A stretch of 64,000 nt of DNA from Myxococcales bacterium (GTDB lineage: Bacteria > Myxococcota_A > Polyangia > Polyangiales > Ga0077539). The stretch is from the NCBI GenBank assembly GCA_016792845.1, contig JAEUKH010000018.1:10984-74983 (forward strand), in the 5' to 3' direction. Both the position numbers and the translations under genes were made by a program. Below are positions 4,384-62,606 of the stretch, piece by piece. The notes below the pieces were generated by a model. The model saw only the letters and a list, made by a program, of their open reading frames with translations. It did not search any database and was not told the DNA's origin. Within the stretch, counting starts at the first letter, position 1, and each line of letters starts with the position of its first letter.

Positions 4384-4447
4384 CGCGACAGGCCGAGAGG
4401 GGTTGAACTGCCGATCCAACCCTCGCATCGTGAGGCCCGGGCGCGAC

Positions 4448-6607: not shown

Positions 6608-6616
6608 GCACACCCC

Positions 6617-45271: not shown

Positions 45272-46446
45272 GGGTGAGCCCCCATCTGTTGCCGCACGGC
45301 CTCGACGTTGCGGAGCAGCTCGCGCATGCTGTCGCCCCCGCACTTTTCGAGCAGGGCGTCGGCGAGCACGAGGCACACCATGGCCTCGACCACGACCCCC
45401 GCCGCGGGCACGGCGCAGAGGTCGCTGCGCTCGGTGTTGGCGTCGACGGGTCGGTGGGTCAAGAGATCGACCGAGGGCAGCGGGCGCCGCAAGGTCGAGA
45501 TCGGCTTCATGGCCGCCCGAAGCGTCAGCGCCTCGCCGTTGGTGACGCCGCCTTCGAGCCCCCCTGCGACGTTCTGGGTGCGGAGGTAGCGCCCGTGCTG
45601 GCGGGTGATCGGGTCGTGCACGGCGCTGCCCCGGCGACCCGCCGCGGCCCATCCGTCTCCCAGTTCGACGGCCTTGATGGCGTGCACGCTCATCACCGCG
45701 CCGGCGAGACGGGCGTCGAGTTTGCGATCCCATTGGGTGTAGCTCCCGAGGCCCACCGGGAGCCCCAAGGCCACCACTTCGACCACGCCGCCGAGGGTGT
45801 CGCCTTCATGCGAGACGCTGTGAATGGCCTCGCGCATGGCCTCCTCGGCCTCGGCCGAGAGCACCCTCAGGCTCGACGCTTCGAGCGCGTCGCGGCCTGG
45901 CCCGGGCAGGCACCATTGCCTCGGGTCGACCTCGGTGGGGTCTTCGACGCCGCCGATGGCGCAGACCCTCGACGCGACCCGAACCTCGACCGCCGCGAGG
46001 AGCGCGCGGGCCACCGCCCCGGCAGCCACCCGCGCCGCGGTCTCGCGTGCGCTCGCGCGTTCGAGCACGTCACGCACATCGCGACGGTCGAACTTCAGGG
46101 CCCCTGCGAGGTCGGCGTGCCCAGGCCTCGGGGTGCTGAGCGGGGCCGGCGCGGTCTCAAAGACCTCGGCCCCCATGCGGCCCTGCCAGTTGGCGAAATC
46201 GCGGTTCTCGATGCGCAGCCCGATGGGGGCCCCGAGGGTCTCGCCGCCGCGCACGCCGCCCTCGATGAGCGCCCGATCGCGCTCGATTTTCATGCGGCCG
46301 CCGCGGCCGTACCCGAGCTGCCGTCGCGCGAGGTCGTGGTTGATGGCCTCGGCCCCAAGAGAGAGCCCCGCGGGCACCCCGTCAACGATGACAGAGAGCG
46401 CGGGGCCGTGTGATTCGCCTGAGGTCAACCAGCGGAGGTGAGGCAT
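45268..46446 (-). CDS. aroC: chorismate synthase
   Basis: MPHLRWLTSGESHGPALSVIVDGVPAGL N-terminus. Conserved ...RSSARETAARV..., ...GGISNG-like GGVTNGEAL. Confidence 0.85.
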   Translation of the reverse strand: MPHLRWLTSGESHGPALSVIVDGVPAGLSLGAEAINHDLARRQLGYGRGGRMKIERDRALIEGGVRGGETLGAPIGLRIENRDFANWQGRMGAEVFETAPAPLSTPRPGHADLAGALKFDRRDVRDVLERASARETAARVAAGAVARALLAAVEVRVASRVCAIGGVEDPTEVDPRQWCLPGPGRDALEASSLRVLSAEAEEAMREAIHSVSHEGDTLGGVVEVVALGLPVGLGSYTQWDRKLDARLAGAVMSVHAIKAVELGDGWAAAGRRGSAVHDPITRQHGRYLRTQNVAGGLEGGVTNGEALTLRAAMKPISTLRRPLPSVDLLTHRPVDANTERSDLCAVPAAGVVVEAMVCLVLADALLEKCGGDSMRELLRNVEAVRQQMGAHP

Positions 46447-46492: not shown

Positions 46493-48094
46493 TCAGCGGC
46501 CGATTGACTCGGCGCGGTTGACGATGCGCGGGGTGAGGAAGATGAGCAGCTCAGCGCGGGTGTCGTTCTGTCGGTTGCGGCGAAAGAGCGCCCCGAGGAT
46601 CGGGATCTCGCTGAGCACCGGCACGCCCGTCACGTTACGACCCGTGGTGCGGCTGTAGATGCCGCCGATCACCGCGGTGCGGCCGTCTTGCACGAGGAGG
46701 TCGGTCTCGGCCTGGCGGCGCAAGATCGTGGGGTCGCCGCGGGCGCCGGTGTTGTTGAAGTCAGGCTCGTCGCGGTTGATCTGGACGTGCATCGAGATCG
46801 AACCGTCGGCGGTGACGTGGGGCCGCACCCGCAGCGCGAGCCGCGCCTCCTGAAAGGCCGTCTGGACGCCCGCGGCGCTCACCTGCGAGTACGGGATGAG
46901 CGTACCCTGCGAGATGGTGGCCTCGCGGTTGTCGAGGGTGAGCACCCGCGGCGAGCTCACGATGCGCAAGATGCCTGAGTTTTCAGCGGCCGAGAGGCGG
47001 GCGTTGAGGTTCAGGTTCTGAGAGAGCGAGCCGAGGCTCAACCCGAGCGCACCGCCCGCGCCGGTGCCCACCGAGGCCGGGAGGTTGATGGCGAAGTTCG
47101 GGTTCGCCACGGTGCGTGAGATGGGCGACAGACCCGCCGTCGGGGCGTTGGCATCGGCCGCGCCGCCGACGAGACCGATCGAGGCCGGGAAGGTGAGCCC
47201 GGTCTGATTGCCAAAGGCCGGCGAGAAGGCCACGTCACCGCCCCACTGGATGCCCACGTCGCGGGTAAACGTGCTCGTGGCCTCGACGATCCGCGCCTCG
47301 ACCAACACCTGCGGCGTCTGCGTGTCGAGCGAGCGGACGAGCTGCTCGATCTGGTTCAGGTTGGCCACCACGTCGCGCACGATCAGCACGTTGGTGCGGT
47401 CGTCGACCGAGAGGTTGCCGCGCCCCGAGAGGAGCTCCCGCGCCCGCGGCGCGATCTCAGAGCCCGTCGCGTAGCTCACGGGGATGAGCCGCGTCTCAAG
47501 GGGCTCAAGCGTCACGAGCTGCTTCTGCCGCTCGATCTGGAGCTCGCGCTCTTTATCGAGCACCGACTGCGGCGCGATGCGAATGATGTTGCCGTCGCGC
47601 TGCATCCCGAGCGAGCGCGCCGCGAGGATCACCTCAAGCGCACGATCCCACGGCACGTTGTGCATGCGGATGGTGACGTTGCCCGCTACGTCGTCAGAGG
47701 TGACAATGTTGACATTGCCCACTTCGGCGAGGAGCCGCAGCACGTTGTGAATGTCGGCGTCTCGGAGGTCGATGTCGATGCGACGCCCGGTACCCAGGGT
47801 CTGACCCCGCGCGCCGGTGATCTGCATCGGCACGGTTGAGAGAAAGCCCGCCTCGGCGCTGTCATCGTGGGCGGTGACCCCTGCGAGCGGGGCCTCGCGG
47901 GCGATGACCCGAGAGGGCGGCCGGGTGGGCGCCTCGGTGGGGGGCGTCAGGGGTTGTGCGTTGGCGGGCCTCGCCGTGCCCAACACCGCGGCAAGCACCA
48001 GCAGCGGCGCGAGCACGCACCACGGCCCGAACGGCCGCCCCGGCGCGTGTCGAAGGCCTGCTTGAATAGGGTGACCGTACATCCAAAACCTCAC
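46493..48094 (-). CDS. pilQ: type IV pilus secretin PilQ
   Basis: Signal peptide. AMIN/N0-like N-terminal region. Secretin core (…NLNARLSAAENSGILRIVSSPRVLTLDNREATI…VPVLSEIPILGALFRRNRQNDTRAELLIFLTPRIV). Confidence 0.8.
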   Translation of the reverse strand: MRFWMYGHPIQAGLRHAPGRPFGPWCVLAPLLVLAAVLGTARPANAQPLTPPTEAPTRPPSRVIAREAPLAGVTAHDDSAEAGFLSTVPMQITGARGQTLGTGRRIDIDLRDADIHNVLRLLAEVGNVNIVTSDDVAGNVTIRMHNVPWDRALEVILAARSLGMQRDGNIIRIAPQSVLDKERELQIERQKQLVTLEPLETRLIPVSYATGSEIAPRARELLSGRGNLSVDDRTNVLIVRDVVANLNQIEQLVRSLDTQTPQVLVEARIVEATSTFTRDVGIQWGGDVAFSPAFGNQTGLTFPASIGLVGGAADANAPTAGLSPISRTVANPNFAINLPASVGTGAGGALGLSLGSLSQNLNLNARLSAAENSGILRIVSSPRVLTLDNREATISQGTLIPYSQVSAAGVQTAFQEARLALRVRPHVTADGSISMHVQINRDEPDFNNTGARGDPTILRRQAETDLLVQDGRTAVIGGIYSRTTGRNVTGVPVLSEIPILGALFRRNRQNDTRAELLIFLTPRIVNRAESIGR

Positions 48095-48270
48095 AGAAGG
48101 GTGACGTCTCAGGGGAGGCTATGACGGCCTCACGAAGGACCCCACATTTTGAGCAACTCTTGTCTCAGCCCGACAGAACCCTTCGTCTGCCCGCTCCGAC
48201 GATGCCGCGATCAAGCAAACATCGTCGTGTTTCTACCGCTCCGCACGGCCCCCTACGGGTGGCTTCGCGC

Positions 48271-49260
48271 TCAGCGAAGCGGCGACTCGCCCCCGGTGAT
48301 CACCACCGGCGGCGGCGTCGTGGGCACGGCCATCGGCTGAACCGCTTGTTGAGCCGGAGGCGCTTGCACGATCACCGTCGTCTGCTGTGGCGGCGGCGGC
48401 GCGCCCACAGCGCCCCGCACCCCCGCCGGCGTGGGCGGTACGATGCGCCCCCCACCCGGCGCTGCGCCGGGCACGCCAGGGCCCCCTGGAGGCCCTGACG
48501 GGCCACCTCCGCCGAGGTTCGACGGCAGGTACGCCGGGCCCCCGCCTCCGAGACCGGGCGGCAGGGCGCCCACGGCGCTCGGGTCGACGGCGCCGGTGCT
48601 CGTGACAGCGCTCGCCTGGTCGTTGCCCGCGAGGGGCAGCGAGCGCTCGACAACCTGGGCGGTGGGGTTGAGCGGGTCGGGCCGCTCGAGCACGAGCTCT
48701 GCGGGCACCTCGAACATCTGCCCGTCGGGGCCGCGACGGAGCCGCGACGGGAGCACCCGCGCGACACGCCAATGCACGGCGTAGTCGTTACGGTTCTCGG
48801 TGTTCGAGTGGATCATCTCGGGCCGACCGACGAGCACCCCGCGGCGCAGGATGGTGCCGCGCCGGGTCGGGTCGACCACCATCGCGTAGGGGCTGTCGGT
48901 GCCGAGCACCACGGCCACGAGGCGGAGGTCGTCGAGCGAGTAGTTCGACAAGGCCACCGAGCGGGTGTCTTGATTCACCACGGTGCCGTCGGTGCGAAAC
49001 ACTTCGGCGTACGACCTGAAGGGGTCGCGCACCTGGCCGCTCTCGACGAACGAGTTGTCGGTGACCGTGAGCGCCGGCAGCGAGGCGTCGGCCTCGGTCG
49101 CGGCATCGCCGCGGTTGCGGTTTCGGTTACGGGGCCCGCCGGTGGGGGTCGCCGTCGGAGGCGCGGGGGCCGCCGCGGGGGGCGCTTCGTCGTCGCCGCA
49201 ACCGGCCAAGGCGACGGTCGAGGCGAGCACGATCGCGCCAAACGAGGTGTTGCGTTTCAT
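48271..49260 (-). CDS. pilP: type IV pilus assembly lipoprotein PilP (with Pro/Gly-rich C-terminal extension)
   Basis: Lipobox LAGCGDD. Conserved PilP core (RDPFRSY...LDDLRLVAVVLG...YAMV). Position between pilO and pilQ. Confidence 0.6.
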   Translation of the reverse strand: MKRNTSFGAIVLASTVALAGCGDDEAPPAAAPAPPTATPTGGPRNRNRNRGDAATEADASLPALTVTDNSFVESGQVRDPFRSYAEVFRTDGTVVNQDTRSVALSNYSLDDLRLVAVVLGTDSPYAMVVDPTRRGTILRRGVLVGRPEMIHSNTENRNDYAVHWRVARVLPSRLRRGPDGQMFEVPAELVLERPDPLNPTAQVVERSLPLAGNDQASAVTSTGAVDPSAVGALPPGLGGGGPAYLPSNLGGGGPSGPPGGPGVPGAAPGGGRIVPPTPAGVRGAVGAPPPPQQTTVIVQAPPAQQAVQPMAVPTTPPPVVITGGESPLR

Positions 49261-49928
49261 GGGCGGGCTCCGTCGGTCACGCCGCGACCGGTTTGATTGC
49301 GGGGCGCCGCGGCGCCGTTACGCGGCCCACCCTCGACGCTGCGGAAGGTCGTCGCCTGCACGTCGGCTTCGAGGTGCCACTCGTTGGTCGCCGGGTCGAG
49401 GGTCGGCTGCCGGAGACGAATGTTCTCCATATTGATCACACGCGGCAGCTGCGACACCGAGTGAAAGAAGCGCGCGAGCTGCAAGAAGCCGCCGCGGATC
49501 TTCAGCTCGACCGGGATGCGCGCATAGTACTGCTCGACGCGCTCTTCGACGGGTCGAATCAGGCTCAGCTGGAGGCCGCTGGCCTCGGCGAGCGCGTTCA
49601 CGTTTCGGATGAACCCGGGGATGTCTGGGTCGCTCGGCAACACCTGCCGCAGCGACTCTTCGCGCTGCCGGGCGCGGGCCAGCTCGGCCTGGTCGCTGTT
49701 GTACCGCCGGAGGTCTTCTTCGACCTGGCGGCGCTGCGTCTGGAGGGTGCCGCGACGGGTCTCCTCCATCTGCCGGTTCTCATCGAGCGGCGTGTAGAAC
49801 ATGGTGTAGTACAGCGCGCCGACCGCGAGCACCGCCACGACCCAGGCGCCGACCACGAGCGCGTTCGGGTTGATCGAGCCCAGGGCCCGCGGCTGCGAGA
49901 GCTGGGTATTCTTCTTCGCGGTGGCCAT
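49257..49928 (-). CDS. pilO: type IV pilus assembly protein PilO
   Basis: Single TM segment, coiled coil, and the PilO C-terminal domain (…IPVELKIRGGFLQLARFFHSVSQLPRVINMENIRL…). Order pilM-N-O-P-Q. Confidence 0.65.
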   Translation of the reverse strand: MATAKKNTQLSQPRALGSINPNALVVGAWVVAVLAVGALYYTMFYTPLDENRQMEETRRGTLQTQRRQVEEDLRRYNSDQAELARARQREESLRQVLPSDPDIPGFIRNVNALAEASGLQLSLIRPVEERVEQYYARIPVELKIRGGFLQLARFFHSVSQLPRVINMENIRLRQPTLDPATNEWHLEADVQATTFRSVEGGPRNGAAAPRNQTGRGVTDGARP

Positions 49929-50594
49929 TCAGTACCTCACCCGCGCAACAATGGTGAACTTCTGCACCGTTACACCGCCGCCCCGAGGGCCCGACGCGGT
50001 CGCGGCCTGGGTGCTGTCGAGCCGCACATCGCGGAAGTAAACCGAGAGCTGCAAGCGCCGCATGAACTCGCCCACGTCGTCGGGCGTGCGACCCTCGCCG
50101 CTGATCCGCACCGAGCGATTCTCTTCGATCAGCTCGGTGATCCAGAGGCGTTGAAAATCCCAGGTGGGGCTCCACATCCGGTCGCGCTGGTTGGTGCTCC
50201 GGAGCCGCTCGACCACGGTCGGGTCAGCGGTCGGCACGCCGCCGCGCGAGAGCATCCGCGAGACCTCGACGAACATCGCCGTCGGGCCCGTGCGGGCGTT
50301 CTGAAGCTCGCGAATGGCGTCTTCGCGGCGCTGCGCTTCGGCCAGCTCGTCGAGGATGCGCTGGTGGTCGCCGACCCGCGAACGGATCGACTCGATCTCG
50401 CTCTGGACGCGGGTGTTCTGCTCGACAAGACTCTGGAGCTCTTTGTCTTGCGAGGCGTGGAAGAGGAAGAGCCCCCCGAGCAGGAGCACCACCGATGCCA
50501 CGGCGCCCACCAGCAGAAACGTCGACACCGTGTTGGTGCTCGGCGTCGAGGCCCTGCGGGCTTTGTCCTCGGTAAGTAGGTTGATCTTCAGCAT
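49929..50594 (-). CDS. pilN: type IV pilus assembly protein PilN
   Basis: MLKINLL N-terminus (PilN hallmark), one TM segment and a coiled coil. Confidence 0.7.
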   Translation of the reverse strand: MLKINLLTEDKARRASTPSTNTVSTFLLVGAVASVVLLLGGLFLFHASQDKELQSLVEQNTRVQSEIESIRSRVGDHQRILDELAEAQRREDAIRELQNARTGPTAMFVEVSRMLSRGGVPTADPTVVERLRSTNQRDRMWSPTWDFQRLWITELIEENRSVRISGEGRTPDDVGEFMRRLQLSVYFRDVRLDSTQAATASGPRGGGVTVQKFTIVARVRY

Positions 50595-50601
50595 CGTGGG
50601 C

Positions 50602-51669
50602 TCACACCTTCTCGCGGTCTTTCCGCAGGGCGAGGCCGATGGCCACGCACACCTGGGCGCGGTGGAGGTTCAACTGTTCGGTGTTGACCTCTTTGGGGTC
50701 TACCGCAATGTCTCGAAACGGATCGAGCGGCTCGACCGGCGCCTTCGCGCGCCGCTCAAGGGCCACTGCCATCTCCGGAATGTTCGCCGTGCCGCCCGAG
50801 AGATAGATGCGCCCGATCTCGCGCTCGCCGCTGGTGGCGAGGTAGAAATCGAGCGAGCGCAGGATCTCGGCCGAGAGCTGCTCGACCGCCTGACGGATGA
50901 TCTGCGGCACCTCGGCGGGCACCACCGCGCGGGCGTCGAGCTGGCCGCCGGCGGCGTGGGTCTTGTAGACCTCGGCCTCCTCCCAGCTGATGCCGAGCCG
51001 CTTCTGGATCTCTTCGGTGATGGCGTTGCCGCCGTTCACGATGCTGCGGGTGAAGGCCGGGATGCCCCCGGACAAGATGTTCACCGTGGTGAGACCCGCG
51101 CCGATGTTGATGAGCGCGACGTTGCCCTCGCGGGGCAGCCCGTAGTTGACCTCGAAGGCGTTCTGCACCGTGAAGGCGTCGACGTCGACCACGGCGGGCT
51201 TGAGCTTGGCTTCCCGCGCCACCTGCGCCGCGTCGTTGATCTCTTCCTTCTTGGCCGCGACGAGGAGGACGTCCATCTGCCCCTGTTCGGGTCGACGGCG
51301 CAGCACCTCGTAGTCGATCTGCACGTCTTTGATGTCGTAGGGGATCTGCTGCTCGGCCTCCCACGGGATCTGCTCGGCCAGCTCGGCCTGCGTCATCATC
51401 GGCAGCGCGAGTCGGCGGATGATCACCGCGTGGCCGCTCACCGCGAGCGAGCACTCCTTGCGCTTCAGCTTGAGCTGACTCCACAGACTGTTGAGGCCCT
51501 GGATGATCGCCGACGCGTTCATCACGTGACCGTCGACGACGGTCTGCGAGGGCAACGGATAATAGCCGAATTTCACCAACGTCCGTTTGCCGCGGACGTC
51601 TTTCAGCTGACAGAGCTTGATAGAGCTCGACCCAATGTCGACGCCCACGAGGTAATTGCCCTCGGCCAT
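50602..51669 (-). CDS. pilM: type IV pilus assembly ATPase-like actin-fold protein PilM
   Basis: N-terminus YLVGVDIGSSSIKLCQL... of the actin/FtsA-like fold. Length 355 aa. Confidence 0.85.
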   Translation of the reverse strand: MAEGNYLVGVDIGSSSIKLCQLKDVRGKRTLVKFGYYPLPSQTVVDGHVMNASAIIQGLNSLWSQLKLKRKECSLAVSGHAVIIRRLALPMMTQAELAEQIPWEAEQQIPYDIKDVQIDYEVLRRRPEQGQMDVLLVAAKKEEINDAAQVAREAKLKPAVVDVDAFTVQNAFEVNYGLPREGNVALINIGAGLTTVNILSGGIPAFTRSIVNGGNAITEEIQKRLGISWEEAEVYKTHAAGGQLDARAVVPAEVPQIIRQAVEQLSAEILRSLDFYLATSGEREIGRIYLSGGTANIPEMAVALERRAKAPVEPLDPFRDIAVDPKEVNTEQLNLHRAQVCVAIGLALRKDREKV

Positions 51670-52412: not shown

Positions 52413-55079
52413 TCAGAAGCCCGGCGTCGCGCCGGTGGGGACGAGCTGCGTCGAGAGCGCGCCGTGCGCGTCGACACCCTCGGCGCGAAGCACGAAGAGC
52501 GCTTCGACGTAGAGCCGCCCCTCGTCGAGGCGACCCTCGCCGATGGCGCTCACCCGCACGTTGCCGTCGCCGAGCCGTGAGAGCTCGATGACGAGCGGCT
52601 GAGAGGCCCCGAGGCGCAGCGCCGCGTCGCCCTTCTCGAAGCCCGTTGGGTGCGCCGCGAGCGCCGCCAGGGCGTGAAGCCCCGCGTCGGCCGAGGGCCC
52701 TTCGAAGCCGAGCAGCATGCCCTCGCTGCCCGTAGTGAGACGGCCCACAAAGGCCCGCGCGACCTCGGCGTTGCTGTCGCCGAAGGCCACACGCCCCGCG
52801 CGCATCGAGAGCGCCAGCTGAACCGCAGGCCCCCACCCCGAAGCCCCCTGCGCGCGGAACGACAAGGCCGACCGACGCGCCCGCGAGAGCTCGTCGTGCG
52901 CCTCGACCAGCGCGACCCGATCACCCGCCGGGAGCTCGCCGAGCAACGCAGCCAGGAGCGTCGTACGCCCCGCGCCCCGCGCGCCCACCACGACGATGTT
53001 GCGCCGCGAGACCAGCGCGTTGTGCAGCAGAGCCACCGCGGGCGCCGAGAGCACCCCACGGGTGGCCAGCTCTTGCAGCGAGGCCGGCCGCGCCGCCGCG
53101 CGCTCAAGGGTCGCCACCACCCCGTGCGGCACCAACGGAGCGTAGGCCGCCACCACCCGCACGCCGCCGTGCACCACGGTGTCGATGTGGCTCGACGCGC
53201 CGCGGTTGAAGCCCTGGGCCCCGAGCCAGCGGTCAAGACACTCGGCCGCCGCTTCGCTGCTCGAGAACCACTGCCCTGTCGCGGCAATGGCGCCCCCGCG
53301 GGCCGCGTGCACAGCCCCCGCGCCGTCGATCACCACCGCGGTGGTCTCGCCGTCTTCGAGGAGCGCCTCAAGGGCGCCGCTGCCCGCGATCTCTGCCAGG
53401 GCGTCGCGGGTCAGCCGCTCGACGGTGACCCCCGCGGGCATCGGGCCTACGGCGCGGGCCGTCTGCTCGACCAGGGGCCGAAGCCGCGCGCGCGCAACCT
53501 CGTCGCCCGCAGCGCCGTCACCGCCGCGCTGCCTGGCCTGCCGAACAACCTGCCCCAAGACCTCTTGATACTCGTTGCCGACCTGCGGTTCGAGCGCCCG
53601 CGCCACGGGCCGCGAGGCGATCTGAGCCGTGGCCCCGAGGCCCAACGAAGGCGCAGCGAGAGGCGTCGGCGCAGGGCCCGAAGGCGGCAGCCCCAAAGCC
53701 GGCGCTGACAGCGACTCTGCCATCATCGGCTCGGGCTGCGACTCGCGGTGAATCTCAACCGGCACCGGCGCCATCACGGGCTCGATGGGCGCCGCCTGCG
53801 GTGCGCCGAAACCAGGCGGAGGGCCCATCATCGGCGGGGCCCCGAGACCAGGCGGAGGGCCCATCATCGGAGCACCCAGACCGGGCGGAGGGCCCATCAT
53901 CGGAGCACCCAGACCGGGCGGAGGGCCCGGCGGTGCGCTCAACCCTGGGCCCATGCTCGGCGCCGCCAACGGCGGGGTCGCGAGATTGGGAGGAGGGCCA
54001 CCAAGCGACGGCGGAGGGCCGCCAAGCGACGGCGGTGGGCCACCAAGCGACGGCGGTGGGCCACCAAGCGACGGCGGTGGGCCGCCAAAGGAGGGTGCGG
54101 GCCCACCAAACGACGGCGCAGGCCCCCCCATCGGAGGCGGAGGGCCGCCCAGCGACGGCGGAGGGCCGCCAAGCGACGGCGCGCCGGGCTGGCTTGAACG
54201 GAGCGGCGGAGGCCCACCCACAGGAGCCCCTCCGGGCGGTGTGGCCATGGGGCCAGGAGGCCCGCCAAGCGGCGCGGCCGAGAGCCCACCCGCAGCAGGG
54301 CCCATCGAGGGTCGATTGCCAGGACCCCCAGAGGCAGACCCCACGCGCGGCGCAGGCCCGTTCGACAAGCCCGGCGGCGGGCCCATCGGCGGAGGGCCAC
54401 CCATCGGCGCGCCACCCATCGGCGGAGGGCCGCCCATTGGCGCACCACCCATCGGCGGAGGGCCGCCCATCGGCGCACCACGCATCGGCGGAGGGCCACC
54501 CATCGGCGCGCCACCCATCGGCGCGCCACCCATCGGCGGAGGGCCGCCCATCGGCGCGCCACCCATCGGCGGAGGGCCGCCCATCGGGCGCGGACCACCC
54601 GGCGGCGGACCCATCATCCCGGGCGGTGCGGTCATCGCGCGGGGACCACCCGGCGGGCCCGCAAAGCTCGGCGCCGGAGCCGGTGCTTCTTCTTCGTCGC
54701 CCCCGCCCCCGCCGTCGTCTTCGGGCGGCATCGCGTCGGCCGAGCCGTCGTCGACAAACTGGGCGTTCGGGTCGTCGACCATGGGCTGATCGCCCATCTC
54801 GACCATCACCACGAAATCGCCGATGTAGATCTTGTCGCCGGGGCGAACCACCGAGGGCGTCGTGATACGCCGACCGTTGAGGTAGGTGCCGTTGGTGCTC
54901 TTGAGGTCAACGACGAAGAAACGCCCGTCTTGACGCACCACCCGAGAGTGCCGCTTCGAAACATTGCCCTTCGGCAGCACAATGTCATTGCCCGGGACCC
55001 GACCGACCGTCACCTCGTCTCGGTCGAACTCCATCCGCTTCGGGGTACCGCCCTTTTCAGTGACGATCAGTGTCAGCAT
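52413..55079 (-). CDS. FHA-domain protein with long Pro/Gly-rich repeat region and C-terminal CpaF/VirB11-like (type II/IV secretion-type) ATPase domain
   Basis: N-terminal FHA domain (VTVGRVPGNDIVLPKGNVSKRHSRVV...TNGTYLNG). About 350 aa of GGPPPM / GGPPPSL tandem repeats. C-terminal Walker A VVGARGAGRTTLL and VALVEAHDEL. Immediately upstream of the pilM operon on the same strand. Confidence 0.7.
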   Translation of the reverse strand: MLTLIVTEKGGTPKRMEFDRDEVTVGRVPGNDIVLPKGNVSKRHSRVVRQDGRFFVVDLKSTNGTYLNGRRITTPSVVRPGDKIYIGDFVVMVEMGDQPMVDDPNAQFVDDGSADAMPPEDDGGGGGDEEEAPAPAPSFAGPPGGPRAMTAPPGMMGPPPGGPRPMGGPPPMGGAPMGGPPPMGGAPMGGAPMGGPPPMRGAPMGGPPPMGGAPMGGPPPMGGAPMGGPPPMGPPPGLSNGPAPRVGSASGGPGNRPSMGPAAGGLSAAPLGGPPGPMATPPGGAPVGGPPPLRSSQPGAPSLGGPPPSLGGPPPPMGGPAPSFGGPAPSFGGPPPSLGGPPPSLGGPPPSLGGPPPSLGGPPPNLATPPLAAPSMGPGLSAPPGPPPGLGAPMMGPPPGLGAPMMGPPPGLGAPPMMGPPPGFGAPQAAPIEPVMAPVPVEIHRESQPEPMMAESLSAPALGLPPSGPAPTPLAAPSLGLGATAQIASRPVARALEPQVGNEYQEVLGQVVRQARQRGGDGAAGDEVARARLRPLVEQTARAVGPMPAGVTVERLTRDALAEIAGSGALEALLEDGETTAVVIDGAGAVHAARGGAIAATGQWFSSSEAAAECLDRWLGAQGFNRGASSHIDTVVHGGVRVVAAYAPLVPHGVVATLERAAARPASLQELATRGVLSAPAVALLHNALVSRRNIVVVGARGAGRTTLLAALLGELPAGDRVALVEAHDELSRARRSALSFRAQGASGWGPAVQLALSMRAGRVAFGDSNAEVARAFVGRLTTGSEGMLLGFEGPSADAGLHALAALAAHPTGFEKGDAALRLGASQPLVIELSRLGDGNVRVSAIGEGRLDEGRLYVEALFVLRAEGVDAHGALSTQLVPTGATPGF

Positions 55080-58060: not shown

Positions 58061-58993
58061 TCAGCGCTCTGAATGCCCGCAGCGAATGCCCACGTCGACC
58101 GAGGGCTCTCTCGATTCGGTGCGGCACCTTTCGTTGAGGCTGACCGGGCGCTCTCGAAAGCTCGACCCGCAGCTCTCGATGTAGAGGCTCGTCGTCCAGT
58201 AGCGAAGGTTGCCGACCAGGTCTTCGACCCCGACCGCCGAGCGCGGTCTCGCGGGGCTCGCCTCACAGGGTAATGTGCGCCGCGCTTGCGGGCTCCAGCA
58301 GGTCTCGGTCGTCGGCGCTTCGTTGCCCCAGGGGTAACGTCGATCGTCGCCCGCACGGCCCACCGCGGGCCACATCCCAGACTGTGGGATCTCGGCCTCG
58401 CGAAACCGACAGAATGCCCGCGCGTTTTCGAACGAGACGCAGTTGATGGGGCGCAGGGGCTCGCCAGGCCGGGCGGCGCTGCACCCGGGCCCGAGCCCCG
58501 GTGGGGGGCAGGCGCGCGCGGCCACACACGCGAGATACTCGCCTACGGTCACCAACCGTGTCGACAGGCAGTTCGTCGGCCCGATGCTGCCCTCGCCCAC
58601 CTCGGGGATGCCGCTGTAGCCGGCCCGACACAGCGGAATCGGACCGATCCTTTCCAGCCGATGGATCTCACCCACGACCTCCTCGGGGCGCCGCTCGGTC
58701 GCTCTCGGAGGGGGCCCTGAAGGCCCTGAAGGCCCCGAAGGCTCTGATGACCCCGAAGGAGCTGATGACCCCGAAGGAGCTGATGACGCCGATGACGCCT
58801 GGTCGCGACCACCCGCCACGCAACGCAGGACCCCCGACACGTTGACCTGGCGGTAGCCCGGGGCGCACAGACATTGCTGGCCATCGGGTGCGGGGCGACC
58901 GCGGTTGCTCGGGCCGCACTGGAGCCGCGCCTGCGCCCAAACCGACGATGTTGACAGTGTCAACATGAGCAAGGCCGTCAGCGAGCGCTTCAT
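58061..58993 (-). CDS. secreted FGE-sulfatase (SUMF1/formylglycine-generating-enzyme-like) domain protein
   Basis: Start ATG 58993 (MKRSLTALLMLTLSTSSVWA signal). Ser-rich linker. FGE-domain motifs INCVSFENARAFC, RYPWGNE, GNLRYWT. Confidence 0.6.
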   Translation of the reverse strand: MKRSLTALLMLTLSTSSVWAQARLQCGPSNRGRPAPDGQQCLCAPGYRQVNVSGVLRCVAGGRDQASSASSAPSGSSAPSGSSEPSGPSGPSGPPPRATERRPEEVVGEIHRLERIGPIPLCRAGYSGIPEVGEGSIGPTNCLSTRLVTVGEYLACVAARACPPPGLGPGCSAARPGEPLRPINCVSFENARAFCRFREAEIPQSGMWPAVGRAGDDRRYPWGNEAPTTETCWSPQARRTLPCEASPARPRSAVGVEDLVGNLRYWTTSLYIESCGSSFRERPVSLNERCRTESREPSVDVGIRCGHSER

Positions 58994-59811
58994 CGCGCAC
59001 CGAGCGGGGCGACGCATCGAAAGCCGACGCGGCGGAGGTGGGTGGCGTTGGCCGCAACGCCGATGCGTGAGGTGACGGTGACGAACTCGGGCGAGACGTC
59101 GCCGTATCCGCCGCCTCGCACGGCGACCCGGGCCTGCGCGAGGGGGGCGTCAGGCTGGAGATTGGCGGGCATCTCCAAGGAGACGGGCTGGGCTGAGCCG
59201 GCACTCTGGGGGCCGCCCATCGGCAGGAAGAGGTTGAGGGTGAACTCCCAGACGTTGCCGGCCATGTCGTCGAGGCCGAGCGGGCTGCGCCCTGCGGCGA
59301 AGCTCCCGACCTGGCAGGTGCCTTCGCGCTGGCCTTCGAAGGCGCCGCTCCAACAGAGCTGTGAGACAGGCGGAGCGTCGCCCCAAGGGTACCGCCTTGG
59401 GTCGCCGCTCTGGGCGGCGTACTCCCACTGCGCCTCGGTAGGGAGGCTGAACCCGAAGGCCTGACAGTACCGACTGGCCTCGATGAAGCTCACGCAGTTC
59501 ATCGGGTGCCTGCCGTTGCCTGCGCGCACGATGTTGCAGTTCTCTTGAAAGGCTCGCCCCGAGCATGCGCCGCGCGCGACGCACGCGCTGTAGTCGTCAG
59601 CGGTGACCTCTGCGGTGTGGATGCAGAACCCGCTCTGCGAGACGGCCTGGGCCTGGACCTGGCGTTGGGACGCGCTGAGGCCGATGATGACCTGCCCGGC
59701 GGTGACCGCGACCATGCCCTGAGGGCACGCCGGGCCGACTTGCGCGAGCGCTGCGGCGGAGCCTAGCAGCGCCGCGAAGAACGACACGCTTCTTGTGTGA
59801 TGCACTGTCAT
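58990..59811 (-). CDS. secreted FGE-sulfatase domain protein (paralog)
   Basis: Start ATG 59811 (MTVHHTRSVSFFAALLGSAAALA). Motifs MNCVSFIEASRYCQAFG, RRYPWGD, GNVWEFT. TGA overlaps the ATG of the downstream paralog (ATGA). Confidence 0.6.
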   Translation of the reverse strand: MTVHHTRSVSFFAALLGSAAALAQVGPACPQGMVAVTAGQVIIGLSASQRQVQAQAVSQSGFCIHTAEVTADDYSACVARGACSGRAFQENCNIVRAGNGRHPMNCVSFIEASRYCQAFGFSLPTEAQWEYAAQSGDPRRYPWGDAPPVSQLCWSGAFEGQREGTCQVGSFAAGRSPLGLDDMAGNVWEFTLNLFLPMGGPQSAGSAQPVSLEMPANLQPDAPLAQARVAVRGGGYGDVSPEFVTVTSRIGVAANATHLRRVGFRCVAPLGAR

Positions 59812-59822
59812 GATCGCCCTCC

Positions 59823-60785
59823 TCACCGAATGCAACGAATGCCGACGCCGGCCAGCGCCCCGGGCTCATCGGGGACGGGGTAGCGCACCGTCGCGCCGAG
59901 GTACTCGGTGTTGACGACGCGCCAGCTGCCGCCCCGCGCGACGCCGAGCGCCCCGGCGGCGCCCCGCACCGGTACGTTCGCCAGCACGTTCTCTCGGGTG
60001 GCATAGGCGTTGGCGACGTAGACGTCGGCGGTCCACTCCCAGAGGCTGCCGACCATGTCGGCGACGCCGAAGGCCGAGAGGTTGGCCGCGCAATTGCCCG
60101 GGTAGCGATACTCGACCGGCCGCTCTTCACCCGGTCGCCGAATCAGACACGGCACCTCGTTGAGGCTCGTGCCCCACGGGTAGCGCGCCCCGGTGGCGCC
60201 GCGCGCTGCGAACTCCCACTCGGCCTCGGTGGGCAAGCGCATATTCCGCCACGCACAGAAAGCCGCCGCCTGCGCCTGGGTCACGCAGCTGATCGGCCGA
60301 TCGTACGTCGTGTCGGTGCGCGGCACGGTGCTCGGCGGCACGCTGCATCCCGCCCATCGCCCGGGCGGCGTGCACGCTTGCGCGTCGACACACTCGAGGT
60401 ACGCGCGCGCGGTCACCTCGCGGGTCATCATACAAAACGGCGCGACCTCGACGAGGACCCGCGGGCGCTCATCGGGGCGCCCCTCGCCCTCGCGAGAGCC
60501 CATCATGAACCACCCGCCTTCGACCGCGCGGGAGTCGACGTCGCAGCCGCGGCGCAGCGGCCACAACAGCCGCCCGGGGGGCCGCCCGTCGGCCACCGTG
60601 ATCGACAGCGCCACGCACATCGAGACCGACCCCTCGGTGCGCTCCTCGGCGCCCGCAGGGCACTCGCAGCGCGCGGCCGTGGGCGACGGACGCCCGGCGC
60701 CGCAGCGCATCACCGTCGGCACCGCGAGCGCAGTGCCAACATGCGCCATCATGAGACAGAATAGCAAGACTCGGGGGTGGGTCAT
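59823..60785 (-). CDS. secreted FGE-sulfatase domain protein (paralog)
   Basis: Signal peptide MTHPRVLLFCLMMAHVGTALA. Motifs ISCVTQAQAAAFCAWRNMRLPTEAEWEFAA, ARYPWG, GSLWEWT. Confidence 0.65.
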   Translation of the reverse strand: MTHPRVLLFCLMMAHVGTALAVPTVMRCGAGRPSPTAARCECPAGAEERTEGSVSMCVALSITVADGRPPGRLLWPLRRGCDVDSRAVEGGWFMMGSREGEGRPDERPRVLVEVAPFCMMTREVTARAYLECVDAQACTPPGRWAGCSVPPSTVPRTDTTYDRPISCVTQAQAAAFCAWRNMRLPTEAEWEFAARGATGARYPWGTSLNEVPCLIRRPGEERPVEYRYPGNCAANLSAFGVADMVGSLWEWTADVYVANAYATRENVLANVPVRGAAGALGVARGGSWRVVNTEYLGATVRYPVPDEPGALAGVGIRCIR

Positions 60786-60791
60786 GGGTGT

Positions 60792-62606
60792 CTAGTTCGG
60801 CGCCTTCACGCATCGAAAACCGGTGTGTTCTGTGCCGCTCGCCCGCTCTTCGGTGCCGTGGATGACGTAGTCTTCGAGGTCATCGTGCGGGACCCCGAAG
60901 TAGCCGCCCATGGCGTGCTGAAAGGGCTCGTGTTGGGTGGCGTCGACCCACTCGTTGACGTTGCCGAGCGCGTGGCGATACCCGTCGTTTTCGTCAGTCG
61001 GGAGTGCGATCGGGGTGTCAGCGCGGCTGAGGAGTTGCAGCTCGGGGGTGAAGCCGCGCGCCCACGGAGGGAGGCCCGAAGCGTCGACGCCGAGGGCCTG
61101 AGCCCACTCGGCACGGGTCGGGAGTCTCGCGTCGAGCCGCGCGCACCACGCCGCGGCTTCGGCGTGCCCGATCTTGACCACCGGGAGCTGTGACTCGGCC
61201 TCACCCAGCGATTCTCGCGCGACCAAGAGGTTATATTCACCACGCGAAACCTCCATACGCTGAATATACACACCATTTCTCATCGCAAAAGGATTGCTAC
61301 GAAGCACGATGTCGCGGGGTTGCAGCGCGGGCGGTAATTCACGGGGCGCCGCGCGAGGGCCCGCCGTGGCGGTGCGCGGCGTGGTCACCGAGGGGGTTGC
61401 GGGCGCGGGTTGCGGCCGAGGCGCCCGGCGCAGAACCCAGATGACCGCCGCGGCGAGTACGAGGCCCATCGCCGCCGCCACGCCAAGGCTTGAGCGCCTC
61501 AGGCGGGCTCCCCCCGGAGGGGCTACACCGTTCGGTGTCGCGGCCCCCGACGACGCCGCCGCGACGGTCGCCTGGGCCACCACCGACAGCGGCTGAGTGG
61601 CCGCGGTCTCGCCCCCGGGCGCGCGCGCCACGGCGTCGACCACAACCCGCGGCAGCGGCGCGGTCGGCGCGAAGGGCGTCGCGCGCAACGGCTGCGTCTC
61701 GTGCGACGGCTCGGCGGCGGGCGGGGGCTCGACCGGGACGCCTGCGAGCGCGCTCTCGAAGGCGGTCACGCAGGCCGCGACGTCGACGAATCGGTCAGAC
61801 GGCTCCCATGCGATGCAGGTCGAAAACCACGCGTCGAACTGAGGCCCCGTCGGCACGCCGTAGTCGCCCGATCGCGCGGAGAACGGCGCGTTCGAGCGCG
61901 AGAGGACCTCGCGCCGCACATCCTCGGGGTGCAGCGCTTCGCCGTTCGCGGTCGGCCAGTAGTGCCGCCCCGTGACGAGGTAGAAGGCCACGAGGCCGAG
62001 GGCCCAAACGTCAGCGGCGGGGGTGACCGCGCCGACCGAGACGAGCTGTTCGGGCGCCGCGTAGGCGGGCCTGAGCGCACCCCGGGCCCCCTCACCCGCC
62101 GACGTCGCGGCGAGCGCCTCTTGGAGGCCTAGATCGAAGATCTTGAGCGTCGGCAGCGCGCCGCCCCCCTCGACGAGAAAGAGCGTCTCGGGCCGGAGGT
62201 CGCGGTGCGCGAGGCCCCGCGCGTGAAGCCCCCCGAGCGCCGCACCGAGCGACCGAAGGAGCCACTGGAGGTCGTCGCGCGCCCACCGACCCGCGCGCTG
62301 GACCCGCGACGCGACGCTCTCGCCGCGCAAGAGCTCGCGCACCTCGAAGAGCCCCGCGGTCGCGTCGCACCCTACCTCGACGAGCCGTACGCCGTGCCGC
62401 GGCCCCAGGGTCGCAGCGTGGGCCTCGACCCCCGCGCGGATCGCCGCGAGGGAGGCCGCGTCAACGCGCTGATCTGGCACGAGCCTCAGCGCGAGCCGGT
62501 CGCCCCCGCGGGGCGCCTCGACCTCGTACACGGCGCCGAGGCGGCCTTGCCCGATGGTGCGCACCACGACATATCGCCCATCGATCACCATGCCCGCACG
62601 AAGCAC
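60792..62606 (-). CDS. Ser/Thr protein kinase-like domain (VAIK Lys replaced by Arg) - TM segment - extracellular FGE-sulfatase domain fusion
   Basis: Gly-loop IGQGRLGAVYEV. Beta-3 LALRLV (Arg where the catalytic Lys is expected). HRDLRPETL catalytic loop. DLG variant of DFG. AYAAPE. TM segment LGVAAAMGLVLAAAVIWVL. C-terminal FGE-like region (HAEAAAWCARLDARLPTRAEW..., GNVNEWV). Confidence 0.7.
   Translation of the reverse strand: MLRAGMVIDGRYVVVRTIGQGRLGAVYEVEAPRGGDRLALRLVPDQRVDAASLAAIRAGVEAHAATLGPRHGVRLVEVGCDATAGLFEVRELLRGESVASRVQRAGRWARDDLQWLLRSLGAALGGLHARGLAHRDLRPETLFLVEGGGALPTLKIFDLGLQEALAATSAGEGARGALRPAYAAPEQLVSVGAVTPAADVWALGLVAFYLVTGRHYWPTANGEALHPEDVRREVLSRSNAPFSARSGDYGVPTGPQFDAWFSTCIAWEPSDRFVDVAACVTAFESALAGVPVEPPPAAEPSHETQPLRATPFAPTAPLPRVVVDAVARAPGGETAATQPLSVVAQATVAAASSGAATPNGVAPPGGARLRRSSLGVAAAMGLVLAAAVIWVLRRAPRPQPAPATPSVTTPRTATAGPRAAPRELPPALQPRDIVLRSNPFAMRNGVYIQRMEVSRGEYNLLVARESLGEAESQLPVVKIGHAEAAAWCARLDARLPTRAEWAQALGVDASGLPPWARGFTPELQLLSRADTPIALPTDENDGYRHALGNVNEWVDATQHEPFQHAMGGYFGVPHDDLEDYVIHGTEERASGTEHTGFRCVKAPN

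What the first reader, a model, noticed from the sequence alone, without database searches (positions are those of the whole stretch)
58061..62606. Four consecutive FGE-sulfatase (SUMF1-like) domain genes, the first fused to a kinase domain, with no sulfatase gene nearby
Three secreted paralogs (ATGA-coupled) and one transmembrane kinase-FGE fusion lie in a row. FGE domains normally generate formylglycine in sulfatases, but no sulfatase is encoded in the window. In Myxococcota these domains are frequently extracytoplasmic sensor or ligand-binding modules of kinases. The paralog array next to one such receptor suggests a diversified ligand-binding family.
Basis: partly seen in the sequence, partly recalled or inferred. 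Interest (0 to 1): 0.5.

Follow-up and report, generated by a model that had tools for sequence, protein, structure and literature searches.

The report
Kinase-linked non-catalytic FGE-fold protein cluster
A four-gene operon in an uncultured myxobacterium encodes a membrane receptor with a probably inactive kinase domain and three secreted relatives of the sulfatase-activating enzyme; all four lack that enzyme's catalytic cysteines, so this is an ordinary member of a large, poorly understood family of bacterial surface "sensor" domains, not a sulfatase-maturation system.

Summary
Four adjacent minus-strand genes (58061-62591) all match Pfam FGE-sulfatase. The first is a kinase-TM-FGE fusion and the other three carry signal peptides. 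No sulfatase is encoded anywhere in the 64 kb window.

None of the four has the FGE catalytic Cys pair, and only 4 of the 240 nearest homologues do. These are therefore non-catalytic FGE-fold (C-type-lectin-like) extracytoplasmic modules, not formylglycine-generating enzymes.

- The kinase domain has lost the beta3 Lys (to Arg) and the catalytic-loop Lys and Asn (HRDLRPET). Of 312 related kinase domains, 94-98% keep these residues, so it is probably a pseudokinase.
- The paralogues are 30-38% identical and are not each other's nearest relatives, so this is not a recent diversifying array.
- Only one junction is ATGA-coupled.
- There is no diversity-generating retroelement in the window.

The cluster is identical or near-identical in three sequencing runs. 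It is not found next to Tex in the closest genomes. The best non-self homologues are only 35-44% identical.

FGE-like domains attached to kinases or anti-sigma-like proteins, and tandem FGE arrays, recur elsewhere and are described in the literature.

Verdict: a new member of a known kind, with the ligand unknown and modest interest.

The parts
60792..62591 (-). Gene 1: single-pass membrane protein, kinase-like domain - Pro/Ala linker - TM - minimal FGE-fold ectodomain (599 aa; alternative GTG start at 62606)
   Evidence: Pfam Pkinase 83.6 bits and FGE-sulfatase 30.8 bits. Called as 599 aa on Logan contigs L001, L002 and L088.
61737..62591 (-). Hanks-type kinase-like domain (aa 1-285) with degenerate catalytic residues: ALRL instead of VAIK, HRDLRPET instead of HRDLKPxN, DLG instead of DFG
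   Evidence: Alignment to PknA and to 8 homologues (A1). Survey of 312 related kinase domains: 294 keep Lys, 306 keep Asn, and none has this combination.
61431..61487 (-). Transmembrane helix LGVAAAMGLVLAAAVIWVL (aa 369-387)
   Evidence: Kyte-Doolittle 19-residue mean of 2.5, the only such segment outside the kinase core.
60795..61280 (-). Compressed FGE-fold ectodomain (aa 438-599, about 160 aa versus 230-250 typical), ending in GFRCV; no catalytic Cys
   Evidence: Pfam match to profile positions 86-218. AF2 model pLDDT 71.8, pTM 0.70. Foldseek top hits are T. curvata FGE, SenA, pFGE and EgtB. Alignment A2.
59823..60785 (-). Gene 2 (FGE2, 320 aa): signal peptide, 4-Cys N-terminal mini-module (aa 28-57), full FGE-like domain (aa 88-320)
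   Evidence: Pfam 134.6 bits. Best PDB sequence hit is pFGE/SUMF2 1y4j. The Cys-pair columns hold V and L. Cys pattern and module motif.
58990..59811 (-). Gene 3 (FGE3, 273 aa): signal peptide plus FGE-like domain. ATG at 59811 is preceded by GGAGGG (59817-59822), 11 nt after the FGE2 stop
   Evidence: Pfam 123.6 bits. Junction sequence. Called as 273 aa on Logan contigs. The Cys-pair columns hold V and V.
58061..58993 (-). Gene 4 (FGE4, 310 aa): signal peptide, 4-Cys mini-module (aa 26-58), Ser/Pro/Gly linker, degenerate FGE-like domain (family motifs RLPTEAEWE and GNVWEW read EIPQSGMWP and GNLRYW here). Its start overlaps the FGE3 stop as ATGA
   Evidence: Pfam 45.1 bits, partial match. AF2 model pLDDT 70 with the FGE core above 85. 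Foldseek finds CalU17 at 7.6e-7, then pFGE, FGE and PvdO. Junction sequence.
58706..58795 (.). 9-nt tandem repeat encoding the SSAPSGSSAPSGSSEPSGPSGPSGP linker of FGE4
   Evidence: the repeat finder family D1, 7 copies at 9-nt spacing.

Best explanation
This is a lineage-specific, tightly packed four-gene operon of an uncultured Polyangiales-like myxobacterium. It encodes an extracytoplasmic binding or sensing set built on the non-catalytic FGE (C-type-lectin-like) fold. Gene 1 is a type-I-like receptor: a cytoplasmic Hanks-kinase-fold domain, one TM helix and a minimal FGE-fold ectodomain. Genes 2-4 are Sec-exported, disulfide-rich FGE-fold proteins. None can make formylglycine, because the two Cu(I)-ligating catalytic cysteines are absent. 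The most likely mechanism is this. The FGE-fold modules bind an unknown periplasmic or surface ligand through the variable loop between the RGGSW and GFRC motifs, which is the region that holds the active site in FGE and the variable region in DGR targets. The secreted paralogues may act as independent binders or as partners of the receptor ectodomain, by analogy with the pFGE-FGE pairing. The cytoplasmic kinase-fold domain has Arg for the beta3 Lys and HRDLRPET for HRDLKPxN, so it most likely transmits as a pseudokinase scaffold or a very weak kinase, not as a normal phosphotransferase. Shown here: domain content, absence of catalytic residues, predicted topology, operon packing, and recurrence of the same architecture elsewhere. 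Inferred: ligand binding, ectodomain-paralogue interaction, and loss of kinase activity.
For: All four match PF03781, and the FGE fold is confirmed for the two weak domains. In alignment A2 with three Cys-pair-bearing FGE-type references (P0087, P0103, P0116), Cys1 is V/V/S/V and Cys2 is L/V/C/L in the four window proteins. The alignment to T. curvata FGE shows the same. Only 4 of the 240 nearest homologues carry the GGSxxC....C motif. The best PDB sequence hit of FGE2 is the non-catalytic paralogue pFGE/SUMF2. Signal peptides, a single TM helix and a shared 9-Cys pattern point to an extracytoplasmic location. Junctions of 6 nt, 11 nt with a Shine-Dalgarno motif, and a 4-nt overlap indicate co-transcription. 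FGE-like domains recur as outer modules of signal transducers. Kinase-FGE fusions appear in the hit lists (P0064, P0075, P0082, P0095, P0108, P0120, P0126) and in locus L010. P0002 is a TM-FGE protein translationally coupled to an ECF sigma factor. P0219 lies directly upstream of a Ser/Thr kinase. P0007 lies in a tandem array of four FGE-domain genes. Kinase degeneracy is shown. The N-lobe contains no Lys at all (sequence). Literature: the family is expanded in myxobacteria (PMC8436480), and a third of kinases in Ca. Thiomargarita carry the domain with unclear function (bioRxiv 10.1101/2022.02.16.480423). The FGE/FGS domain is a CLec-fold binding module (PMC7159879, PMC10907252).
Against: No ligand, partner or phenotype is known for any kinase-linked FGE-like domain, so binding is inferred by analogy. 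Some FGE-fold proteins without the Cys pair are annotated or studied as biosynthetic enzymes or enzyme components (PvdO, ToxD, CalU17, EgtB C-domain), so loss of the cysteines does not prove a non-enzymatic role. The genome is Lys-poor overall, with most proteins at 0-2% Lys, so Lys-to-Arg changes could partly reflect compositional drift, and residual kinase activity cannot be excluded. No orthologues above 44% identity exist in 5.8 billion proteins, so conservation of the operon, and hence selection on it, cannot be shown. The strain comparison has too few substitutions to help.
Confidence: 0.55

Rival explanations
1. Genes 2-4 are periplasmic enzymes of a non-FGE chemistry, for example PvdO-like oxidative maturation of a secreted metabolite or peptide. 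The kinase-FGE protein would be a co-regulated or unrelated neighbour.
For: FGE-fold proteins lacking the Cys pair include proteins annotated or studied as biosynthetic enzymes or enzyme components. PvdO, ToxD, CalU17 and the EgtB, SenA and OvsA C-domains are all among the PDB hits. NCBI names the family 'nonheme iron enzyme'.
Against: Scores are far below every equivalog cutoff: PvdO 41.6 vs 500, EgtB 63.9 vs 360, SenA 76.7 vs 420. There is no DinB-like iron-binding domain. There are no biosynthetic genes in the operon or its flanks. FGE4 and the ectodomain are degenerate even in the family's core motifs.
Confidence: 0.2
2. This is a decaying, functionless remnant of a lineage-specific expansion: a dead kinase, a truncated ectodomain and a degenerate fourth paralogue.
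For: Catalytic residues of the kinase are lost. The ectodomain is about 160 aa instead of about 240. FGE4 has lower GC3 (0.75-0.78) and a partial Pfam match. There are no orthologues in the closest genomes next to Tex.
Against: All four ORFs are intact, tightly coupled and identical or 99% identical in three independent sequencing runs. GC3 of 0.84-0.88 in three genes indicates coding constraint. Structural Cys patterns and core fold motifs are preserved. FGE3 shows 4 synonymous and 0 non-synonymous differences between strains.
Confidence: 0.1
3. This is a surface immune or conflict sensor. The FGE/CLec modules would recognise or neutralise an invader (phage or a competitor's molecule), as proposed for FGS domains in multicellular-bacteria conflict systems, with the kinase-fold domain acting as the regulatory switch.
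For: FGE/FGS domains are proposed invader-binding modules, often fused to kinases, STAND NTPases, TIR domains or caspases (PMC7159879, PMC10907252, PMC12803255). TIR- and trypsin-fused relatives occur in the hit lists (P0028, P0068, P0069, P0260).
Against: The window has no DGR, STAND NTPase, vWA-MoxR, TIR, caspase or other effector. PADLOC gives only generic kinase-domain matches and nothing for the FGE proteins. The neighbours are housekeeping genes (Tex, CoaE, pil, aro).
Confidence: 0.1
4. These are true formylglycine-generating enzymes that serve sulfatases encoded elsewhere in the genome.
For: The Pfam family name, and the automatic JGI annotation of homologues as 'formylglycine-generating enzyme required for sulfatase activity'.
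Against: The catalytic Cys pair is missing in all four. They lack the roughly 55-residue insert present in the Cys-pair-bearing references. There is no sulfatase in 64 kb.
Confidence: 0.02

Closest known systems
pFGE / SUMF2 (PDB 1y4j), the non-catalytic paralogue of human FGE
   Same: Same fold. It lacks the catalytic Cys pair, is located outside the cytoplasm (ER lumen), and is the best PDB sequence match of FGE2 (E 4.3e-16). It is among the top structural matches of both models.
   Different: It is a eukaryotic ER protein known, from my own recall of the literature and not checked here, to associate with FGE. The window proteins are bacterial, Cys-rich, shorter (they lack the long insert), sit in an operon with a kinase-fold receptor, and share only about 17-23% identity with it in structural alignment.
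Bacterial Ser/Thr kinase-FGE fusions ('bifunctional serine/threonine-protein kinase/formylglycine-generating enzyme family protein', 'SUMF1/EgtB/PvdO family nonheme iron enzyme')
   Same: Same N-kinase / TM / C-FGE-like architecture, as in P0075, P0108, P0126 and locus L010. The group is widespread and its function is unknown.
   Different: Those examined keep VAIK-Lys, HRDLKPxN and DFG and have a full-length FGE domain (A1). The window protein has R / HRDLRPET / DLG and a domain of about 160 aa, and it is followed by three secreted paralogues.
DGR variable proteins with FGE-type C-type-lectin fold (TvpA, PDB 2y3c; cyanobacterial and purple-sulfur-bacterial kinase, STAND or vWA-CLec targets)
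   Same: Same fold class, a C-terminal GFRC-type motif, and a variable loop at the position of the variable repeat. There are weak sequence hits to TvpA (E 2e-4 to 5e-4).
   Different: The window has no reverse transcriptase, no template/variable repeat pair and no adenine-biased variation. The strains compared are invariant in the loop.
PvdO (PDB 5hha) and PorK/GldK (T9SS ring lipoprotein)
   Same: They are periplasmic or outer-membrane-associated FGE-fold proteins without the FGE Cys pair, which shows the fold is reused outside sulfatase maturation. Both are hit by sequence and structure searches.
   Different: Scores are far below the family cutoffs (41.6 vs 500; 67.3 vs 350). There is no lipobox, and no pyoverdine or T9SS genes are nearby.

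Membership tests
Formylglycine-generating enzyme (SUMF1-type, aerobic, Cu-dependent) | FGE fold / PF03781 domain | tested here: met
   Pfam scores of 30.8-134.6 bits, all above the gathering score of 23.3. Foldseek on the AF2 models.
Formylglycine-generating enzyme (SUMF1-type, aerobic, Cu-dependent) | Two catalytic, Cu(I)-ligating cysteines in the GGS-x-L-C-[HN]-x-S-Y-C motif (human C336/C341) | tested here: not met
   Alignment A2 with the motif-bearing references P0087, P0103 and P0116 gives V/L, V/V, S/C and V/L at the two columns. The T. curvata FGE alignment agrees.
Formylglycine-generating enzyme (SUMF1-type, aerobic, Cu-dependent) | A sulfatase substrate (PF00884, C/S-x-P-x-R) encoded in the neighbourhood or genome | tested here: not met
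   None in the 64 kb window. The rest of the genome and the DNA beyond Tex are not available, so the genome-wide part is untestable.
EgtB / OvoA / SenA sulfoxide (selenoxide) synthases | N-terminal DinB-like domain with a 3-His iron site, plus the family equivalog score | tested here: not met
   No DinB domain in Pfam. NCBIfam EgtB scores at most 63.9 vs cutoff 360, SenA at most 76.7 vs 420, and OvoA 21 vs 400.
PvdO (dihydropyoverdine dehydrogenase) | Equivalog-level similarity and pyoverdine gene context | tested here: not met
   NCBIfam scores of 41.6 and 22.4 vs cutoff 500. No pvd genes in the window.
PorK/GldK, GldJ (T9SS / gliding lipoproteins) | Lipoprotein signal, equivalog-level similarity and T9SS context | tested here: not met
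   GldK scores 67.3 and 59.6 vs cutoff 350. The signal peptides are A-x-A type with no lipobox (read from the sequence). No T9SS genes.
DGR variable (target) protein | Nearby reverse transcriptase and a template repeat matching the C-terminal variable repeat with A-specific mismatches | tested here: not met
   No RVT Pfam hit in any window ORF. No repeat of the 3' regions other than 51-65 nt paralogue cross-matches at 70-78%. A template repeat elsewhere in the genome cannot be excluded.
Active Hanks-type Ser/Thr protein kinase | Protein-kinase fold (PF00069) | tested here: met
   83.6 bits vs cutoff 31.7. PknA E 1.7e-17.
Active Hanks-type Ser/Thr protein kinase | Beta3 (VAIK) Lys, catalytic-loop HRDxKxxN Lys and Asn, DFG Asp | tested here: not met
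   R36 stands for Lys, and HRDLRPET has R for Lys and T for Asn. The HRD Asp and DLG Asp are kept. Of 312 related domains, 94% have the beta3 Lys and 98% the Asn.
Pseudokinase (operational definition: lacks at least one of beta3-Lys, HRD-Asp, DFG-Asp) | Absence of at least one of the three canonical residues with no compensating Lys | tested here: met
   The beta3 Lys is replaced by Arg, and there is no Lys anywhere in the N-lobe; the first Lys of the protein precedes DLG. Actual loss of activity is not testable with these tools.
Kinase-linked non-catalytic FGE-like extracytoplasmic domain proteins (NCBI 'SUMF1/EgtB/PvdO family') | N-terminal kinase fold, a TM helix, and a C-terminal PF03781 domain without the Cys pair | tested here: met
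   The same architecture is seen in P0126, P0075, P0108 and L010.

The most novel reading that the evidence does not exclude
A pseudokinase receptor with a minimal FGE-fold ectodomain works together with three co-expressed secreted FGE-fold paralogues as a hetero-oligomeric periplasmic ligand-capture system. This would be analogous to FGE-pFGE pairing, or to receptor/co-receptor/decoy sets in eukaryotic lectin receptors, and would signal through scaffold allostery instead of phosphotransfer. It would be a first mechanistic handle on the very large, unexplained family of kinase-linked FGE-like domains in multicellular bacteria.
Probability: 0.12. Interest if true: 0.55.

Novelty: new member of a known kind. 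Interest (0 to 1): 0.25.

Why it matters
FGE-sulfatase domains are among the most expanded families in myxobacteria, cyanobacteria and giant sulfur bacteria, and are routinely mis-annotated as sulfatase-maturation enzymes. This locus is a clean example of why that annotation is wrong: no Cys pair and no sulfatase. It also adds a small twist, in that the attached kinase domain is itself degenerate. If the receptor and its secreted paralogues interact, this compact four-gene operon could be a tractable system for finding the ligand class of the fold. As it stands, it mainly serves as an annotation correction.

Tried and rejected
1. DGR hypothesis. I looked for template/variable repeats locally and across the window with 3'-region blastn, and for a reverse transcriptase among all ORFs. 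Nothing was found.

2. Sulfatase search. Pfam on about 50 ORFs and the PROSITE PS00523 and loose CxPxR regexes in six frames gave only three loose matches, none within a PF00884-matching ORF.

3. Synteny. I used Tex as an anchor in 185k species genomes and ran tblastn with the cluster proteins. The closest genomes (Tex 73-78% identical; Polyangiales MAGs L004-L009) have no kinase-FGE array, MerR-TPR or CoaE next to Tex, so no orthologous locus was recovered.

4. Exact look-ups. The window FGE2 and the NCBI member P0490 were not on record. The 275-kb NCBI MAG contig carrying MBL8601434-36 could not be fetched, so DNA beyond Tex remains unseen. L088 extends only 826 nt further, and that is still Tex.

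5. dN/dS between strains. There are too few differences to use: kinase 3 synonymous / 4 non-synonymous, FGE2 5/2, FGE3 4/0, FGE4 0/0. L088 is 100% identical to the window.

6. Defence-system models (PADLOC). Only generic kinase-domain hits appeared.

7. Promoter and terminator consensus scan. There were zero sites, which is uninformative in a 70% GC organism.

8. Recent tandem duplication. This was rejected because the paralogues rank 65th-124th among each other's hits. However, FGE2 and FGE4 share a unique N-terminal 4-Cys module, and the three secreted proteins share a 9-Cys spacing, so an old duplication is likely.

Full report
**1. What is at the coordinates**

The region 58061-62606 holds four consecutive minus-strand ORFs with no room for anything else. 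Codon-position GC content shows them to be the coding frames. GC3 is 0.84-0.88 for three of them and 0.75-0.78 for the last, which contains a low-complexity linker.

Gene calls on independent Logan assemblies give the same four genes at 599, 320 (or 309), 273 and 310 aa. I therefore use these coordinates:

| Gene | Coordinates | Start |
|---|---|---|
| kinase-FGE | 60792-62591 | ATG; a GTG at 62606 is possible |
| FGE2 | 59823-60785 | ATG |
| FGE3 | 58990-59811 | ATG |
| FGE4 | 58061-58993 | ATG |

- Kinase to FGE2: a 6-nt gap.
- FGE2 to FGE3: an 11-nt gap containing GGAGGG.
- FGE3 to FGE4: an ATGA overlap. Only this junction is ATGA-coupled.

The array is bounded by a divergently transcribed Tex gene (about 62.7 kb to the window end). 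On the other side a convergent MerR-TPR regulator gene ends 9 nt from the FGE4 stop. Beyond that lie CoaE, a NAD_binding_4 reductase, an FHA-ATPase and pilMNOPQ.

Yes.
- All four proteins exceed the Pfam gathering score (23.3) for PF03781 FGE-sulfatase, at 30.8, 134.6, 123.6 and 45.1 bits. The first also has a Pkinase domain at 83.6 bits.
- I modelled the two weak cases with AlphaFold2 on alignments of homologues. The kinase ectodomain gave pLDDT 71.8 and pTM 0.70. FGE4 gave pLDDT 70 with the core above 85.
- Foldseek returned only FGE-fold structures at the top: T. curvata FGE, SenA, pFGE, EgtB, CalU17 and PvdO.
- The kinase protein has one strong hydrophobic helix (aa 369-387). The other three begin with typical A-x-A signal peptides and carry 10-16 cysteines each (the signal peptides are read from the sequence, no predictor was run).
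- No sulfatase is encoded in the window. There was no PF00884 hit among about 50 ORFs and no PROSITE sulfatase signature in six frames.
- An HMM of the domain finds only three FGE-like ORFs in about 1.15 Mb of unrelatedly chosen, mostly Myxococcota DNA. Four in a row is therefore not chance.

**3. Are they FGEs**

No.
- Among the 120 best homologues of FGE2, a few carry the canonical GGS-x-L-C-[HN]-x-S-Y-C motif. I aligned three of them (P0087, P0103, P0116) with the four window domains.
- In that alignment the first catalytic Cys column holds V, V, S, V. The second holds L, V, C, L. The HMMER alignment to the T. curvata FGE crystal sequence shows the same for FGE2.
- The window domains also lack a roughly 55-residue insert present in the motif-bearing references.
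- Only 4 of the 240 nearest homologues of FGE2 and FGE3 have the motif.
- The top PDB sequence match of FGE2 is pFGE/SUMF2, the non-catalytic human paralogue.
- Scores against NCBIfam equivalogs are far below cutoff: EgtB, SenA, OvoA, PvdO, GldK and GldJ. There is no DinB-type iron domain.

So these are not sulfoxide synthases, PvdO or T9SS lipoproteins either. They belong to the large non-catalytic branch that NCBI labels 'SUMF1/EgtB/PvdO family'.

**4. The kinase domain is degenerate**

- Aligned to PknA and to its eight nearest homologues, the window protein has ALRL where all others have ALK[VL]. This replaces the beta3 Lys with Arg.
- It has HRDLRPET where the others have HRDLKPxN. This replaces the catalytic-loop Lys with Arg and the Asn with Thr.
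- It has DLG for DFG.
- I surveyed 312 kinase domains from the 245 closest relatives found by two database searches. Of these, 294 keep the Lys, 306 keep the Asn and 289 keep the loop Lys. None has the window's combination.
- The N-lobe contains no lysine at all, so a WNK-like compensating Lys is excluded.
- One caveat: the genome as a whole is lysine-poor, with most proteins at 0-2% Lys.

By the usual operational definition this is a predicted pseudokinase. Loss of activity is inferred, not shown.

**5. Relationship of the four domains**

They are old and divergent.
- Pairwise identity is 30-38% over the core.
- In a BLAST ranking against the homologue set, FGE3 and FGE4 rank 121st and 124th of 124 for FGE2. 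FGE2 and FGE4 rank 89th and 65th for FGE3. Only FGE4 has a window paralogue (FGE3) near the top of its list, at rank 3.
- The three secreted proteins share a nine-Cys spacing (C-x13-C-x5-C-x8-C ...), which is also seen in P0002 and P0007.
- FGE2 and FGE4 alone share an N-terminal four-Cys, beta-rich mini-module. It was found nowhere else in the window or in the homologue sets fetched at that point.
- The kinase ectodomain is a compressed, Cys-poor version of about 160 aa.
- FGE4 is degenerate even in the family's most conserved motifs: EIPQSGMWP for RLPTEAEWE and GNLRYW for GNVWEW.

This looks like an ancient duplication set, not an actively diversifying array. I found no diversity-generating retroelement in the window: no reverse transcriptase and no template/variable repeat.

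**6. Distribution**

- The locus is 100% identical in one Logan assembly (L088) and 99% identical in two others. It also corresponds to proteins MBL8601434-36 of an NCBI 'Myxococcales bacterium' MAG.
- Otherwise the best database hits are only 35% (kinase), 39-44% (FGE2) and 40-44% (FGE3) identical among 5.8 billion clusters.
- The closest genomes by Tex identity (73-78%; Polyangiales MAGs) do not carry the array, MerR-TPR or CoaE next to Tex.
- The operon is therefore lineage-specific as far as can be seen.
- The theme is not unique. Kinase-FGE fusions are frequent in the hit lists and occur in locus L010.
- P0002 is a TM-anchored FGE-like protein translationally coupled to an ECF sigma factor, which is an anti-sigma-like arrangement.
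- P0219, the best homologue of FGE3, lies directly upstream of a Ser/Thr kinase and a TPR gene.
- P0007 sits in a tandem array of four FGE-domain genes.

**7. Literature**

- The family is over-represented in the myxobacterium Minicystis rosea, with 69 members (PMC8436480).
- In Ca. Thiomargarita magnifica about a third of kinase domains are fused to FGE-sulfatase. There are too few sulfatases to explain this, and the function is described as unclear (bioRxiv 10.1101/2022.02.16.480423).
- The FGE/'FGS' domain is treated as a C-type-lectin-fold ligand-binding module. It is often a DGR target and is proposed as an invader sensor in conflict systems of multicellular bacteria (PMC7159879, PMC10907252, PMC12803255).

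So the kind is known and its biochemical role remains open.

**8. Most likely mechanism**

My confidence in the following is about 0.55.
- The operon encodes a periplasmic or surface binding set on the non-catalytic FGE fold.
- The receptor's minimal ectodomain and the three secreted paralogues bind an unknown ligand through the variable loop between the RGGS[WY] and G[FI]RC motifs. That loop differs in length and sequence in all four. It corresponds to the active-site loop of FGE and to the variable region of DGR targets.
- The cytoplasmic kinase-fold domain transmits as a scaffold or a very weak kinase.

Rivals:

| Rival | Confidence |
|---|---|
| Periplasmic enzymes of other chemistry | 0.2 |
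| A decaying remnant | 0.1 |
| An immune or conflict sensor | 0.1 |
| True FGEs | 0.02 |

**9. Verdict**

This is a new member of a known, functionally unresolved kind. Its value is mainly as an annotation correction and as a compact candidate system for finding what the kinase-linked FGE fold binds. Interest is 0.25.

Noticed in passing
window 10659-13457 (+): A 932-aa ORF whose start overlaps the stop of the VgrG-like gene (9007-10662, Phage_GPD). It has 9.1% Lys, 2.9% Arg and no Cys, in a genome whose proteins are mostly 0-2% Lys, and it matches no Pfam family. It is a candidate T6SS cargo or effector, possibly acquired horizontally.
   Followed up: partly
window 4403-8566 (+): A DUF2169 plus pentapeptide-repeat protein and a second long pentapeptide-repeat protein lie immediately upstream of the VgrG-like gene. 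This is a T6SS-associated accessory module.
   Followed up: no
window 13454-15037 (+) and 17331-19175 (+): An RCC1-repeat protein with a Stig1-like Cys-rich segment, and a protein with a collagen-like triple-helix repeat. Both are Cys-rich (4.6% and 2.9%).
   Followed up: no
window 58706-58795: A 9-nt tandem repeat (7 copies in register) encodes the Ser/Pro/Gly linker of FGE4. It is a potential site of length variation, but it is identical in the three other assemblies.
   Followed up: partly
window 52413-55079 (-): An 888-aa protein with an N-terminal FHA domain and a weak C-terminal T2SSE/AAA ATPase match lies between pilM and the CoaE-FGE region. FHA domains bind phospho-threonine, so it would be a conceivable partner of a Hanks kinase, although the local kinase looks inactive.
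   Followed up: no
window 46493-51669 (-), 43658-46446 (-): A pilMNOPQ-type type IV pilus assembly cluster (the PilP assignment is weak) is followed by chorismate synthase and a fused shikimate kinase/3-dehydroquinate synthase gene.
   Followed up: no
L084 2054-8667 (JGI metagenome 3300050373): Five tandem genes of 423-439 aa, four with FGE-sulfatase hits, lie next to an FHA-sigma54 activator. It is an independent example of an FGE-paralogue array without a kinase.
   Followed up: partly
L083 5402-7521 (JGI metagenome 3300042200): An ECF sigma factor gene overlaps by 4 nt the start of P0002, a 506-aa protein with a cytoplasmic N-terminal region, one TM helix and an FGE-like ectodomain. This is an anti-sigma-factor-like use of the same domain.
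   Followed up: partly
proteins P0338-P0486: Many of the closest kinase-domain relatives are multi-kinase proteins with 2-6 kinase domains, up to 7165 aa. In several, one domain is degenerate at the beta3 Lys, HRD or DFG positions. Pseudokinase domains are therefore recurrent in this kinase clade.
   Followed up: partly
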